Shown one piece after another: positions 1,565-6,806 of a stretch of 64,000 nucleotides of DNA. This DNA is from the human T2T-CHM13v2.0 reference genome, Homo sapiens. The notes below the pieces were generated by a model. It had not been told where the DNA came from, made no database searches, and worked only from the letters and a program-made list of their open reading frames with translations. Positions within the stretch are counted from its first letter, which is position 1; every line of letters begins with the position of its first letter. A program made the position numbers and the translations under genes. The DNA is taken from assembly GCF_009914755.1 (NCBI RefSeq), contig NC_060925.1, one strand, 5' to 3'.

Positions 1565-3061
1565 GTACGTTGGGCCCATGGCATCTTTGGGGGTGGTCCC
1601 CAGCTGCTCTATGGGAGTGAGACTTCATTTCTGGAGCCATAGGACTATGAGGGAGGCCAACCCCTGGGGGGTCCAGTGCAGTCCTGAGGCTCACACAGTT
1701 CCTTGAAGAGCACCCCCCCCACCCCCCGCCCCACTCCCTGCACTCAGTGGAGAATTTTTTTAAATCTCTCCACTATCTGTGCCCCCTGCAAATCACCCCC
1801 TAATCCAGTCATTTTAGAAACCTGCCAGCCAGCCAGCACTCATCCATATTTATACCTGATGAGTGATAACAAGGGGTTTTTATTTGACCACCTATATTTC
1901 TTTTCTCGAAAGATCAGGCTGGGAAAACATTTTTGTTACTCTCTTTTTTTTTTAAACAACTATGCTCACCCCAACCTGTTGAGCCACTCTTCCACTTGCA
2001 AATTAAAATGACTGGTTTTCTAGGAGAAATCCGGCTTAAGCAGCCTTATGGAAGTGACCTAGTTCATTTAACCGAGATGAGGTTGATATAGGGTAAGATG
2101 GGGGAAGGAGGGAAAAGGATGTCAAGGAACAAAGGAAACCTGAACTGGTCCCAGAGAGATCTCATCTGATAGGCTGTTGGTTGATTCTCACACTTTGAAG
2201 CAGTTGTCCCGTGGGCCCACCCAAGCCTGCCCCCTGTCCGTTTGCCCTGTCTCTGTCCCCAGCTCCCCTCCCTTGGATACGATGCTGTCAGTGTTTTTAG
2301 TCCTTCCCTTAATATTATTTTTTAAAGGTTGATATCCTGAGTGAGTCTGCACCCTCCCAGCCTCTTCCCGGCTCGTTCTGCAGGGAAATCCTCCCTCTGT
2401 TGATAGCATCGCAAACCTGGTGGCAATCTGTGCGTGGACAGGACCCTCCCAAATTTAGCATTATGACTTCACCACAGGATCAAGAGAAGATGAATTGTGG
2501 GGGAGAAGGGGCTTTCTTTGTCATCAGTAGCCAGAGGGGCCAGGAGAGCAGTGGAGAGACCTGGGACCGGCTTGGATGCTCTGAGCGGGGCTAGAGGCGC
2601 TACGACAGTGTGTGGCGGTGTCCTGCCACGACGCCGCCGTCTCCAGAGCCACCACACAGTTGACTGTCCTTACCCGGCAGTGCTCAGGACCTCAGCCGAT
2701 AAACCACAACCTGGACTTGCCGCCTCCTTCTCCAGGAGGCCGCCCCAGCACGGCCTCCCCAGGAAGCAGCATGGGGTAGAAGGCAGATGCCTCGAATCCA
2801 GGTGTCCCCTAGCCACGCTTTCCTGAGGAGCTGAGGAGCCCGCAGAACTCAGCGGATTATTTATTTTTATTTAAACGACCCTTCAAAGGCCCTTAGGTTT
2901 CCTTGCCTCTGCTCACAGAACTAGTCCAGCCAGGTGTCGCTGCTGCCTCAGAGCTGTGTGGGGTCGCGTGTATGTCGGGGGGCCATCTTGCCGATTTAAC
3001 GCTGCTTTTTGTGTTGTTGTTGTTTTCCCTCCTCCCTGCCTGCCTGCCCCTTCTCCCCCAG

Positions 3062-3208
3062 CGAGGACGGTGTCGTGGAGAGGTCCAGCCCCAAGTCTGA
3101 GATTGAGGTCATTTCTGAGCCACCTGAAGAAAAGGTGACAGCCAGAGCGGGGGCCAGCTGTCCCAGTGGGGGTCATGTAGCCGATATTTATCTTGCAAAC
3201 ATCAACAA
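3062..3208 (+). CDS. SRGAP2: SRGAP2 coding exon (EDGVVERSSPKSEIEVISEPPEEK...YLANIN)
   Basis: Long pyrimidine tract ending ccccag|; AA|gtaagc donor; 147 nt, phase 2-2, in frame with both neighbours. Confidence 0.94.
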
Positions 3209-3975
3209 GTAAGCTCTGCTTTTCATTTTCTGCTCCCCTGAATGACTTGCAACACCCAGCCTCACCCTCTGGCCTAACCCCCATCTCCATTCCTGTGCTG
3301 CACGTAGGGCTCCCAGCTCCCCCAGCCTAACAGTTTGCATGTGGTCATTGCTGCTGCAAGGCGGACAGGGCTGAGGATGCTGCTACAAGCCTCGGGGCAG
3401 GTCCAGGTCTCCAGCTAGCTGCCCTCGTGCTGTGGAAGGGTGCTTTACTGTGTGTTCCCGCAGTGTCTGTCCACCCAGACCTTTGTGGCAGTCTTACAGC
3501 TAAAACTTTGACCAAAGCTTTGGTCACTTTATGCAACCTGGTTTTGTACTGTTTCTCAGAGGTGCCTTCTTTTTTCCAATCCATACTCAAATAATAGTCT
3601 TTGATGTCTGTCTTCCTTGACCCGTGTTCGTGCAAAGATTCAGAGTCTGTGTGTGGCTTCTACTAGGCTGATGTTACACCAGGTGGGTTTATTGAGATAT
3701 CATGTGTCTGTTCCTCCCCCTGTCCTGCATTCACTCCTGTGGAGGAAAGGAGGCCACGATGTCCCTAAGGAAAGCTTTGTCCTGAGCTCTTCATTCATTG
3801 GCTAACCCCTAGCTCCCTTTTCTTCTGCCCTTTCACACCAGGAGAAATAATTTTCCATTTTGTTCCTATTGCTTTGGCCTTTTGTATTATTCTACCCCCT
3901 TAGTCCCTTTGCAGATCCCCACTCCTGCTCAGCAGGCTCTTACCTCTGACCCCCAGCTTTCATTGTGGCTGTTAG

Positions 3976-4216
3976 CAACATCCTGGGGTTTAAACTCCAC
4001 CCACGCCCGATCTGGCTGTCTAGAGGGATTCTACGCCTGCGTGCTGCCGCCTCCCCAAGAGGCATTCAGGTTATTGGAGAACTAATCTCATCTCAAGGGG
4101 CCAGACACCAAGTCCCAAAGCCTACAGACCTCTTTCCGCCAGGCCCTGAAACCTGGCCCCGTGCCAGCAGGATGACAAGCCCCAGGGCGCTCCTGATGAA
4201 TATGGATTGGAGATGA
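3976..4216 (+). CDS. SRGAP2: Candidate SRGAP2 alternative last exon (80 new C-terminal residues)
   Basis: ctctgac branch point and ttag| acceptor; in frame after the phase-2 donor at 3208; stop at 4214-4216; AATAAA at 4315-4320. Confidence 0.45.
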
Positions 4217-6554
4217 TGTACAGTTTTTATTCCCCTCTGGCTTTTGAGGAATGAAATGATTTGCACTTTGAAAACCTGTTAACCGTAGCCTCTGGACACT
4301 GAGACTGGAAGGAGAATAAAGGATGCTTGTTGTTTTTAAACTATACCAGGTTTCCCAGATCTCTTGGCTTTTTTCCACCCAGACGGTAGCAGGGGGAGTG
4401 GTTGGGGCACGTGGCTCTTTTCCATCTCTTTCACCCTCAAGTTAGTAAAGTCGTTTATTCAGATCACTTACTCAGTGTAGTTATAATTTAATTCAGACCA
4501 GTTAAAAAAAAGTTGAGAAGTTTCTGTTTCCCTCCAGCACACTGCCCTGCTGGGAGGGCAAGCCAATATCAAGTAACTGTGGGCTAATCACATTTTTTTC
4601 CTTATTTACAATTCTGTGTTAAATTGTAACCCTACAATCAAAAGGTCGTGATCCTATAATTAACTCAGAAACCAAGGCGGGGTTGGTGGAGGAAGAGTTA
4701 GATAATTAGTTAAGTACATATTTTTAAGCCATCATATATTTGATGCCATTTGTGCATAGAAATTGTAGAGAGTAATAACTGAAATGGTAAACAGAAGAAG
4801 AAAAAAAAAGAGTATCTGTAGACAGTTAAGGTGGTTCCCTTGAACTCCTTGTTTGCTGGTGTCAGGAGTCTTGGGATGGGGTTCTTGGAGGACAAGCCTC
4901 ATCACCTGGTGGGTGGGTGAGCGGTGGCCCCGGGGCATGTCTGGCCCTTAGAAGTGAGTCGGCCTTTGAGTCTTACCTCCTGCCCCCCACGCCACTCCTC
5001 CTCCCAAATTCCTTGAGTTTCCCGAGTGCCCAGGTTCTCTTTCGCCCCTGGGCGCTCACGCCTGCTGTCTCCTCACCTGGTCACCTCCTCATCTCCCTTC
5101 AAGACTCAGTCCGAAGACTTAGCTCTTTGGGGAAGCCATTCTGACATCCCTGACTTCCCCAGGCTGAGTGAGGTGCCCTTATGCTGCATTCCAAAGACAC
5201 TTTGAATACCTTTTGGTACTCACGCTTCACTCAGATCCCCCACCAGATTGAGCTCCTTGAACCCAGGAACTATATCTTCCTTTTCTTTACATCCCCAGGG
5301 CCTAGCCTGGGACATGGCACACCACAGCCACCCCATAAATCTGTCTTCTCAGCAGTTTCAGCCCATGAGTCAGCTATCCTCAAGCAGAAAAAGGAAATCA
5401 GCAAAGAGCTATTAGGGTGTGGCACTTCCATTTAATTCTACACATTTATTAAGTATCTACTGTTGTGCCAAGCACTGCTGGTGTTTATTCAGAGATAAAA
5501 AAGACGAGGTCCCTGATCTCAGAGCTCACAGTCTGGCAAGGTAAAGACCCTATGGACAGGTAACTGACAGGTAGCATCAGATGCTCTGAAGGTACAGAGG
5601 AGGGAGGGGTCCATTCTTCCTGCAACTGGAGTTAGTGGTGCAGTGGTGCCAGTGCAGTTGGAGTTAGTGGTGCCAGGGAAATCCTTGCAGAGAGGGGGTT
5701 CATTTCAGCAGGGCCTTAGAAGACTCTGAGAACATCCTTTTTCCACTCGAGAGCGGCTGAGTCACAAGCCTAAAACTGCCGAGTGGACAGACTCACGGAG
5801 TGACTGATACATGCCAGGTCCTGGGCCAGGCCCTGCAGGCAGAAAGATGAGGAAGACCTCAGCAGTGAACAGGACTAGGACTGGCTTAGAGCACTGTCCC
5901 CACCTCACAGACCAGCTCCTTATCTTCAGAGTCTAACCCCTTCCCTCCTTCCACCTCAACTCCTGCCTCAGCCCCCATCTCTCTTAGATTCAAGATCAGA
6001 GCTGTTCAGCAGCCATCCAAATCAGAAGTTTCATTGCCTCTTAGATTAGACCTTTTCAGATCTGATTCCAAGACAAAATGAAATTATCCAGCAGCAGGCA
6101 ACACCCATGTAACTGGGATTCTGCCAAGCCATTTTGTCTGAGAGCCCTAAGTGGTCTGAAACAAATTCGCCCAGATCCAGGGTTCAGCCCAGTGCTGGGT
6201 GACTTGGGAGTCATGTAGAGGTATTTCCACACTAAGAAAACGCACAAACTGGGCCCCAACTCTGCAGTGTTGCTGCCTCTTGAAAACTATTCTGCTCCAT
6301 GCCTACAGAATAAGCAACAACAGCCTCTTGCCAGAGCCCAAAACAGTTACAGTCTTTTTGGAAAAAGAGACATGCTAAAATTTAGAAAAGTTAACTATCC
6401 TCTTACCAGCAATCTTGACCTCTTTGGTGATGGTGAGACTTCTTCTCCTAGCTGGGGCCTTAGGTTTCTGTTCATGGCAGGTCACAGAAGGGGCCTTTCC
6501 ATGAATCTCTTTCCCATTAGAAACCTTCGCTTAATCAGACATTTTTTCTGACAG

Positions 6555-6593
6555 CAACTTACATCTTGACAACACAAAGCCCGTGACCACCAA
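6555..6593 (+). CDS. SRGAP2: Candidate 39-nt in-frame SRGAP2 microexon (NNLHLDNTKPVTT)
   Basis: ttttttctgacag| acceptor, CAA|gtaagt donor, phase 2-2, no stop codon. Confidence 0.6.
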
Positions 6594-6806
6594 GTAAGTA
6601 TCCATTTCTCCTTCACCCAGCTTGGGGGTGGCAAGGGAATGAAGACATGGAGAATGCAAGAGAAGATGAAGCCGAGGAGAGAACGAGTTCTGTGTCCCTC
6701 TCCTTCCGAAGTCCCTGGGTGCCAACATCTGCCCCCTCCCACTTATCCTAGCTTCCTTGGAGCCAGGGCTCCCTGATCACACTGCCCTTTCTGTTTGTGA
6801 TTGAAG

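What the first reader, a model, noticed from the sequence alone, without database searches (positions are those of the whole stretch)
3944..4340. Complete candidate alternative last exon of SRGAP2 with its own poly(A) signal
Seen, in the right order: branch ctctgAc (3944-3950), pyrimidine-rich stretch and ttag| (3975), an in-frame continuation N-NILGFKLHPRPIWLSRGILRLRAAASPRG...LLMNMDWR* (stop 4214-4216, with exon-like CpG retention), AATAAA at 4315-4320 and a GT/T-rich tract at 4325-4337. Inference: an NMD-resistant isoform replacing the last ~236 residues with 80 new ones and swapping the 3-kb 3'UTR for ~120 nt.
Basis: partly seen in the sequence, partly recalled or inferred. Interest (0 to 1): 0.7.

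Follow-up and report, generated by a model that had tools for sequence, protein, structure and literature searches.

The report
Known SRGAP2 alternative last exon

Summary
The exon and its poly(A) site are real but not new. RefSeq already lists terminal exons 3957-4343 and 2328-4343. Two published supplementary tables list a 3' end in this intron, with usage 0.48 in naive B cells and 0.21 in germinal-centre B cells.

The 80-residue tail would then lie in the 3'UTR.

NCBI models for red deer and water buffalo carry exactly the 3208>3976-type junction and the same tail. Models for macaque, green monkey and a flying fox enter the same frame at the equivalent of 4024. No human protein record carries the tail.

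Conservation looks nucleotide-level, not protein-level. The stretch after the stop is as conserved as the ORF, and one species keeps the central block despite frameshifts on both sides.

Verdict: a known, ordinary intronic-polyadenylation isoform. Whether humans use 3976 remains open.

The parts
3062..3208 (+). SRGAP2 coding exon upstream of the alternative last exon. It ends with two bases of a codon (AA|) and its donor is GT at 3209-3210.
   Evidence: Hub table. On the window's own donor matrix the donor CAA|GTAAGC scores 8.6, against 2.0-9.7 for the 25 annotated donors scored leave-one-out.
3210..3212 (+). TAA stop reached at once if the donor is not spliced, giving ...ANINK*. This is the reading for the composite terminal exon 2328-4343.
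   Evidence: 7 of 120 listed database proteins end ...ANINK. RefSeq exon 2328-4343 (hub) is preceded by an AG at 2326-2327.
3939..3950 (+). The second also holds TGA 3948-3950, which ends the lemur-type tail ...SYL*.
   Evidence: for the sequence; for the tail. The branch-point consensus is recalled, not tested.
3955..3956 (+). AG acceptor of the human RefSeq terminal exon (exon starts at 3957).
   Evidence: Hub table. Matrix score 10.5, above 99.1% of the 5101 AGs in the window.
3973..3975 (+). TAG stop of the RefSeq-type reading (N-FHCGC*).
   Evidence: Matrix score 6.7, above 95.9% of AGs. The same junction is modelled in deer and water buffalo.
4022..4023 (+). AG matching the acceptor of the macaque, green monkey and flying-fox models (exon start 4024, tail K-GILRLR...).
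   Evidence: for the tails; for the sequence. Matrix score 2.25 in human.
3977..4216 (+). The 79-codon open frame plus TGA. It is coding only if acceptor 3976 or 4024 is used; otherwise it is 3'UTR.
   Evidence: No Pfam family. 58-68 residues identical to five named mammals.
4067..4141 (+). Most conserved block, 25 codons (QVIGELISSQGARHQVPKPTDLFPP).
   Evidence: Invariant in the 4 sequences of alignment A1. In the 9-sequence alignment it carries 4 distinct single replacements, one of them shared by macaque and green monkey. It is kept in P0123 although the frame shifts on both sides.
4315..4320 (+). AATAAA poly(A) signal, the only AATAAA or ATTAAA on the + strand of intron 3209-6806.
4343..4343 (+). 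Annotated 3' end (cleavage), 23 nt after the hexamer.
   Evidence: Hub table. 3'-end data place a site in this intron.
4349..4376 (+). GU/U-rich stretch downstream of the cleavage site (GGTTT ... TTGGCTTTTTTCC), the likely downstream element.
   Evidence: for the sequence. The role is inferred.

Best explanation
Window 3957-4343 is a genuine, conserved and already annotated alternative last exon of SRGAP2, in other words an intronic polyadenylation isoform. The donor at 3208 either splices into this exon or is left unspliced (composite exon 2328-4343). The transcript is then cleaved about 23 nt after AATAAA 4315-4320. Either way the mRNA encodes an SRGAP2 that keeps the F-BAR, RhoGAP and SH3 domains. 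It lacks the last 236 residues and the 3-kb 3'UTR, and its stop lies in the last exon, so nonsense-mediated decay should not apply.

The exon has several usable acceptors, at the human equivalents of 3904, 3957, 3976 and 4024. Different species' models pick different ones and so get three different C-termini. What looks selected is the truncation plus a conserved nucleotide block, not a particular peptide tail.

Shown: the motifs, the frames, the annotation, a 3' end in this intron, and conservation. Inferred: that 3957 is the main human acceptor, and that the peptide tail is not under selection.
For: Annotation: the hub table lists RefSeq exons 3957-4343 and 2328-4343.

Frames: 3208>3957 gives N-FHCGC* and 3208>3976 gives N plus 79 aa.

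Acceptor strength: 3957 scores 10.5 and 3976 scores 6.7 on a matrix built from the window's 25 annotated acceptors.

3' ends:
- Singh et al. 2018 (PMC5928244), supplementary file 4, sheet GCB.VS.NB_LowIpA, lists an SRGAP2 peak at chr1:206629434-206629505 (+), with usage 0.48 in naive B cells and 0.21 in germinal-centre B cells.
- Its RetainedCDR of 0.7611990569 equals (2969-709)/2969. That fits only intron 3209-6806; the neighbouring introns would give 0.7117 or 0.8707.
- PMC10286830, supplementary file 3, lists SRGAP2 PAS chr1:206629505:+ as 'IPA'.
- 4315 is the only AATAAA or ATTAAA in that intron.

Conservation: 7 named non-human species have models ending in this exon.

Against protein-level selection:
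- The 21 'codons' after the stop are 19/21 identical between human and P0121, while the tail is 87% identical.
- P0123 keeps the central block but is frameshifted on both sides.
- Replacements include L>P four times, R>C and G>D.
- Random substitution that produces about 11 amino-acid differences still leaves the frame open in 59% of 5000 trials.
- The tail matches no Pfam family.

Domains kept: FCH 31-114, RhoGAP 505-652 and SH3 734-784 in the 915-aa deer model.
Against: I could read no RNA-seq junction data, so the relative use of 3957, 3976 and 4024 in human is not measured. The frame and its stop are kept in all five named species and in human. With the CTGAC branch point (A at 3949), the AG at 3955-3956 is only 6-7 nt away and the AG at 3974-3975 is 25-26 nt away, a geometry that favours 3976 (spacing rule recalled, not tested). 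No DNA of other mammals could be fetched, so no synonymous/non-synonymous test was possible. Linking hg19 206629505 to window 4343 at base level rests on a recalled gene-end coordinate and is off by about 9 nt. The assignment to the intron does not depend on that.
Confidence: 0.8

Rival explanations
1. The 3208>3976 junction (or 3208>4024, same frame) is used at an appreciable level and yields an SRGAP2 of about 915 aa (or 899 aa) with a conserved 80- (or 64-) residue C-terminal tail that is itself functional.
For: Identical junction and tail in the Cervus elaphus X6 and Bubalus kerabau X4 models (915 aa). Same frame entered at the 4024 equivalent in Macaca mulatta X5/X6, Chlorocebus sabaeus X5 and Pteropus medius X5. 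No indel over the 79 codons in 8 of 9 aligned sequences. Identity to human is 68/79 and 67/79 (deer, buffalo) and 61/63, 59/63 and 58/63 (macaque, green monkey, flying fox). Acceptor 3976 scores above 10 of the 25 annotated acceptors.
Against: The junction is not among the exons of the 19 human RefSeq transcripts in the hub table. 0 of 9 proteins with the tail are human, and there are none at 43-139 aa. A stronger AG lies 19 nt upstream. The post-stop stretch is as conserved as the ORF, and one species is frameshifted around the block. The tail has no Pfam family. None of the four tail peptides searched occurs in the papers' main texts (supplements were not searched).
Confidence: 0.3
2. The conserved thing is a cis-regulatory DNA or RNA element (about 4067-4141, plus the exon's 3'UTR). 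It might control use of the intronic poly(A) site or act as an enhancer. All the peptide tails are by-products.
For: The central block is the best conserved part and survives frameshifts on both sides in P0123. Conservation continues past the stop codon (19/21). Species differ in acceptor and therefore in tail.
Against: No known RNA family matches 3200-4800; the best Rfam hit has E = 0.91. A 5'-splice-site-like CAG|GTTATT at 4067-4075 scores only 1.9. The RefSeq enhancer mark in the hub table (2861-3532) does not cover it. No function was tested.
Confidence: 0.35
3. A chance ORF beside a cryptic, functionless poly(A) site (transcriptional noise).
For: Each sequence feature taken alone is within chance.
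Against: Usage is 0.48 in naive B cells. The exon is annotated in human and modelled in 7 named non-human species of three orders. About 86% amino-acid identity between human and deer with no indel is far above what neutral intron DNA would keep (the neutral rate is recalled).
Confidence: 0.03

Closest known systems
Human RefSeq SRGAP2 terminal exons 3957-4343 and 2328-4343 (hub table, RS_2025_08)
   Same: Same exon body, same AATAAA, same 3' end at 4343, same upstream exon.
   Different: I did not see the transcript accessions or their support level.
NCBI models SRGAP2 isoform X6 (Cervus elaphus, P0128) and X4 (Bubalus kerabau, P0129), 915 aa
   Same: 68/79 and 67/79 residues are identical to the human translation.
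   Different: Other species; predicted models whose transcript support I could not see.
NCBI models SRGAP2 X5/X6 (Macaca mulatta), X5 (Chlorocebus sabaeus), X5 (Pteropus medius), 898-899 aa
   Same: Same reading frame and same stop.
   Different: They enter at the equivalent of human 4024 (tail K-GILRLR..., 64 residues), an AG that scores only 2.25 in human.
NCBI models SRGAP2 X5 (Microcebus murinus, P0049) and X11/X12 (Myotis lucifugus, P0112/P0116)
   Same: Same terminal exon region. The Myotis tails end ...PSFHCGC, the same last residues as the human RefSeq-type tail.
   Different: For P0049 and P0116 the acceptor is at the equivalent of human 3904; for P0112 it is further upstream.
Intronic polyadenylation (IpA) isoforms as catalogued by Singh et al. 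2018, Nat Commun 9:1716
   Same: The SRGAP2 site is a row in that paper's supplementary data, labelled intron.utr3. It loses C-terminal coding sequence as that class does.
   Different: Nothing in kind; it is one member of the class.

Membership tests
Alternative last exon / intronic polyadenylation isoform | A 3' splice site inside an intron, joined to the constitutive upstream donor (or the donor left unspliced for the composite form). | tested here: met
   RefSeq exons 3957-4343 and 2328-4343 (hub table). Acceptor 3957 scores 10.5, above 99.1% of 5101 AGs. An AG precedes 2328. I saw no junction reads myself.
Alternative last exon / intronic polyadenylation isoform | A poly(A) signal hexamer with a cleavage site 10-30 nt downstream and a U/GU-rich downstream element. 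| tested here: met
   AATAAA 4315-4320, annotated end 4343 (23 nt), U-rich 4349-4376. It is the only AATAAA or ATTAAA in the intron.
Alternative last exon / intronic polyadenylation isoform | Observed mRNA 3' ends at the site. | tested here: met
   PMC5928244 supplementary file 4 gives a peak chr1:206629434-206629505 whose RetainedCDR fits only this intron. PMC10286830 supplementary file 3 gives PAS chr1:206629505:+ 'IPA'. Taken from the papers' tables, not from raw reads.
Alternative last exon / intronic polyadenylation isoform | An in-frame stop inside the terminal exon, which makes the mRNA insensitive to nonsense-mediated decay. | tested here: met
   TAG 3973-3975 (from 3957), TGA 4214-4216 (from 3976 or 4024), TAA 3210-3212 (read-through).
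Protein-coding sequence under selection on the peptide (the 80-residue tail) | The frame is open and the stop is kept across species. | tested here: inconclusive
   Kept in 5 named species. P0121 lost the stop and P0123 is frameshifted. The named cases were found because they are annotated as coding. Simulation: at this divergence the frame stays open by chance in about 59% of trials.
Protein-coding sequence under selection on the peptide (the 80-residue tail) | Conservation that is specific to the frame: an excess of synonymous changes, and a drop in conservation after the stop. | tested here: not met
   The post-stop stretch is 19/21 identical between human and P0121, against 87% for the tail. 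One comparison only. A dN/dS test was not possible because no DNA of other mammals could be fetched (one search gave only chance prokaryote hits).
Protein-coding sequence under selection on the peptide (the 80-residue tail) | A known domain, or peptide evidence. | tested here: not met
   0 Pfam families at E up to 1. The four tail peptides occur in 0 main texts. Proteome data were not searched.

The most novel reading that the evidence does not exclude
Placental mammals, humans included, make a second truncated SRGAP2 through acceptors 3976 or 4024, which are missing from human RefSeq. Its 64-80-residue tail carries a conserved motif (about QVIGELISSQGARHQVPKPTDLFPP) that acts as a new interaction or localisation module in place of the normal C-terminal region. 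Choosing among four acceptors in one terminal exon would then switch the protein between three different C-termini.
Probability: 0.15. Interest if true: 0.5.

Novelty: already known. Interest (0 to 1): 0.22.

Why it matters
SRGAP2 is studied closely for neuronal migration and synapse maturation, and for its human-specific truncated paralogs. This isoform keeps F-BAR, RhoGAP and SH3 but drops the last 236 residues and the 3-kb 3'UTR. It makes up about half of the gene's 3' ends in naive B cells. It could therefore matter for how SRGAP2 dosage, localisation and regulation are read in expression data.

As a finding it is ordinary, because the exon and the site are already in RefSeq and in published poly(A) tables. 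The one open point of modest interest is which of several acceptors humans use, and so which C-terminus the short protein carries. Other mammals' models disagree on this.

Tried and rejected
1. DNA of other mammals for a synonymous/non-synonymous test. The test was not done.

2. Rfam on 3200-4800. The only hit at E up to 1 was MIAT_exon5_3 at 10.4 bits against a gathering score of 90. Rejected.

3. A 5' splice site inside the exon that would make it a cassette exon. The best GT sites within 3957-4343 score 1.3-2.7, against 2.0-9.7 for annotated donors. Rejected.

4. Paper searches.
- 'SRGAP2' with 'intronic polyadenylation': 0 papers.
- 'SRGAP2' with 'alternative polyadenylation': 12 listed. 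I read passages of two, PMC6169893 and PMC7430845, and found nothing on this exon.
- 'Srgap2' with 'alternative last exon': 1 unrelated paper.
- Five peptide words: 3 papers, all hits for 'fhcgc' inside unrelated words.
- 'srGAP2' with 'C-terminal region', 'SH3' and 'isoform': 12 listed. Passages of one review gave only the domain plan.

5. Supplements.
- InPACT (PMC10960005) held rows for SRGAP2C only.
- The supplement of PMC10227441 was too large to read, so its GTEx-based table may hold this site unseen.
- PMC11541570 has SRGAP2/Srgap2 rows with IPA ratios, but the rows I saw do not say which site they mean. Not used as evidence.

7. ORF length, CpG retention and hexamer count as evidence on their own. 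All are within chance.
Full report
**Observation.** The upstream SRGAP2 exon 3062-3208 ends two bases into a codon. Joining it to 3976 gives N followed by 79 residues (NILGF...MDWR) and a stop. The numbers also hold. The two downstream coding exons carry 709 coding bases, the new 3'UTR 4217-4343 is 127 nt, and the normal one is about 3 kb.

**Is it more than chance?** On sequence alone, no.
- A frame stays open for at least 79 codons after 133 of 2220 intronic AGs in the window, and after 5 of 281 in this intron.
- The same 1.4 kb holds open frames of 137, 117, 104 and 90 aa in non-coding sequence.
- CpG observed/expected is 0.42 against an intron median of 0.23, but 13% of 108 intron tiles reach that value.
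- AATAAA occurs 17 times on the + strand of the 64 kb.

The case rests on outside evidence.

**The exon and its poly(A) site are real and already known.**
- The hub's RefSeq table lists two exons of other SRGAP2 transcripts that end at 4343, 23 nt after the hexamer: 3957-4343 and 2328-4343. The second is preceded by an AG. It runs through exon 3062-3208 and the unspliced donor, where the frame stops at once (...ANINK*, TAA 3210-3212). 7 of 120 listed database proteins end that way.
- The supplementary data of Singh et al. 2018 (PMC5928244, file 4, sheet GCB.VS.NB_LowIpA; I read that row, the file list and passages of the main text) list an SRGAP2 intronic 3'-seq peak at chr1:206629434-206629505 (+), labelled intron.utr3. 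Usage is 0.48 in naive B cells and 0.21 in germinal-centre B cells, adjusted P 0.044.
- The paper defines retained coding region as the coding bases up to the exon upstream of the peak. The tabulated 0.7611990569 of 2969 equals (2969-709)/2969. That fits only intron 3209-6806; the neighbouring introns would give 0.7117 or 0.8707.
- 4315 is the only AATAAA or ATTAAA on the + strand of that intron.
- A second paper's supplement (PMC10286830, file 3) lists SRGAP2 PAS chr1:206629505:+ as 'IPA'. Its methods say sites came from polyA_DB.
- By a gene-end coordinate that I recall for hg19, position 4343 would map about 9 nt from 206629505. The base-level link is therefore approximate. The intron-level link does not depend on it.

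**The acceptor.** The human RefSeq exon starts at 3957, behind the AG at 3955-3956, not at 3976. The short human protein would then be about 841 aa (835 residues up to ...ANIN, by the numbering of the 915-aa deer model, plus 6). The 79-codon frame would lie in a 368-nt 3'UTR.

I built a weight matrix from the window's 25 annotated acceptors. On it 3957 scores 10.5, above 99.1% of 5101 AGs and above 18 of the 25 annotated acceptors scored leave-one-out. Acceptor 3976 scores 6.7, above 95.9% of AGs and 10 of 25. Other AGs nearby score 8.9 (3936), 7.1 (3915), 2.25 (4024) and -0.4 (3904).

Its CTGAC branch motif (A at 3949) is 6-7 nt from the 3956 AG and 25-26 nt from the 3975 AG. By the usual spacing rule (recalled, not tested) that motif would serve 3976. 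The 3957 acceptor would need CTTAC (A at 3942) or a motif further upstream.

**Other species.** I searched the upstream exon's 48 residues against the 5.8-billion-protein library, at longer lengths. That gave 739 hits, of which 120 were listed. After ...ANIN these 120 split as follows:
- 77 continue with the normal next exon.
- 33 continue with the annotated 13-residue cassette.
- 7 end in K (read-through).
- 3 end in this alternative exon: Microcebus murinus X5 (N-PSADSRSCPAGSYL*), and Myotis lucifugus X12 and X11 (both ending ...PSFHCGC*).

The lemur and Myotis X12 tails correspond to an acceptor at human 3904. The bat tails end with the same residues as the human RefSeq-type tail.

Searching the 79-residue tail itself changed my first view.
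- Among 1.84 billion cluster representatives, 7 proteins matched. Three were strong: unnamed ORFs of 145-173 aa.
- In the 5.8-billion library at longer lengths, 9 proteins matched.
- Cervus elaphus X6 and Bubalus kerabau X4, both 915 aa, read ...ANIN|N-NILGF...NMDWR.
- Macaca mulatta X5/X6, Chlorocebus sabaeus X5 and Pteropus medius X5 (898-899 aa) read ...ANIN|K-GILRLR...NMDWR (NMDWK in Pteropus). That is the same frame entered at the equivalent of human 4024.
- None of the 9 is human. At 43-139 aa there were no hits at all.

Models of 7 named non-human species in three orders (primates, artiodactyls, bats), and human RefSeq, thus end in this exon, but through at least four acceptors and with three different C-termini.

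**Is the tail selected as a peptide?** Identity to the human translation is 68/79 (deer), 67/79 (buffalo), 61/63 (macaque), 59/63 (green monkey) and 58/63 (flying fox). There is no indel in 8 of 9 aligned sequences. That is far more than neutral intron DNA would keep over such distances (rate recalled), so the stretch is constrained. The constraint does not look frame-specific, for these reasons:
- In P0121 the stop is replaced by W. The next 21 'codons', untranslated under every model, are 19/21 identical to human, against 87% for the tail.
- P0123 keeps the central block, but upstream and downstream of it follows what is a different frame in human.
- The replacements include L>P four times, R>C and G>D.
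- Random substitution of the human ORF to about 11 amino-acid differences leaves the frame open in 59% of 5000 trials, and keeps both the frame and the stop in 50%. An intact ORF is therefore expected from the low divergence alone.
- The tail matches no Pfam family at E up to 1.
- The four tail peptides I searched occur in no main text of the paper library (supplements and proteome repositories were not searched).

The best conserved part is 4067-4141. It is invariant in the 4 sequences of alignment A1 and carries four distinct single replacements among the nine sequences. It has no Rfam match, and I cannot say what it does.

**Mechanism.** When this site is used, the mRNA ends about 23 nt after AATAAA 4315-4320, and the protein stops in the last exon. 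It keeps FCH/F-BAR, RhoGAP and SH3 (residues 31-114, 505-652 and 734-784 in the deer model). It loses the last 236 residues and the long 3'UTR. This is the ordinary behaviour of an intronic-polyadenylation isoform as described by Singh et al.. I infer, but have not shown, that the selected outcome is the truncation and the UTR swap rather than any one tail.

**What stays open.** I had no RNA-seq junction counts and no DNA from other mammals. The share of 3976 or 4024 use in human, and a proper codon-level conservation test, are the decisive missing pieces. The supplement of PMC10227441 (GTEx-based intronic poly(A) sites) could not be read. The SRGAP2 rows in PMC11541570 do not name the site in the rows I saw.

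**Verdict.** The feature is already known, so interest is low.

Noticed in passing
The same bases serve as splice signals in one reading and as stop codons in another.
   Followed up: partly
   Followed up: no
window 4067-4141: A 25-codon block is invariant in the 4 sequences of alignment A1 and is kept in P0123, whose frame shifts on both sides. It has no Rfam match and its function is unknown. It begins at a weak 5'-splice-site-like CAG|GTTATT (score 1.9).
   Followed up: partly
window 3209-3212 and 2328-4343: If the donor after 3208 is not used, the frame stops after one more residue (...ANINK*). 7 of 120 listed database proteins end so. RefSeq exon 2328-4343, with an AG before 2328, is the matching composite terminal exon using the same poly(A) site.
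   Followed up: partly
window 6555-6593: The annotated 39-nt cassette exon shows up as a 13-residue insert after ...ANIN in 33 of the 120 listed mammalian SRGAP2 proteins. The insert varies between species far more than the flanking exon, which is 100% identical in nearly all listed proteins.
   Followed up: no
outside the window (hg19 chr1:206583152, +): The same macrophage study's supplementary file 4 lists a second SRGAP2 'IPA' site further upstream in the gene.
   Followed up: no
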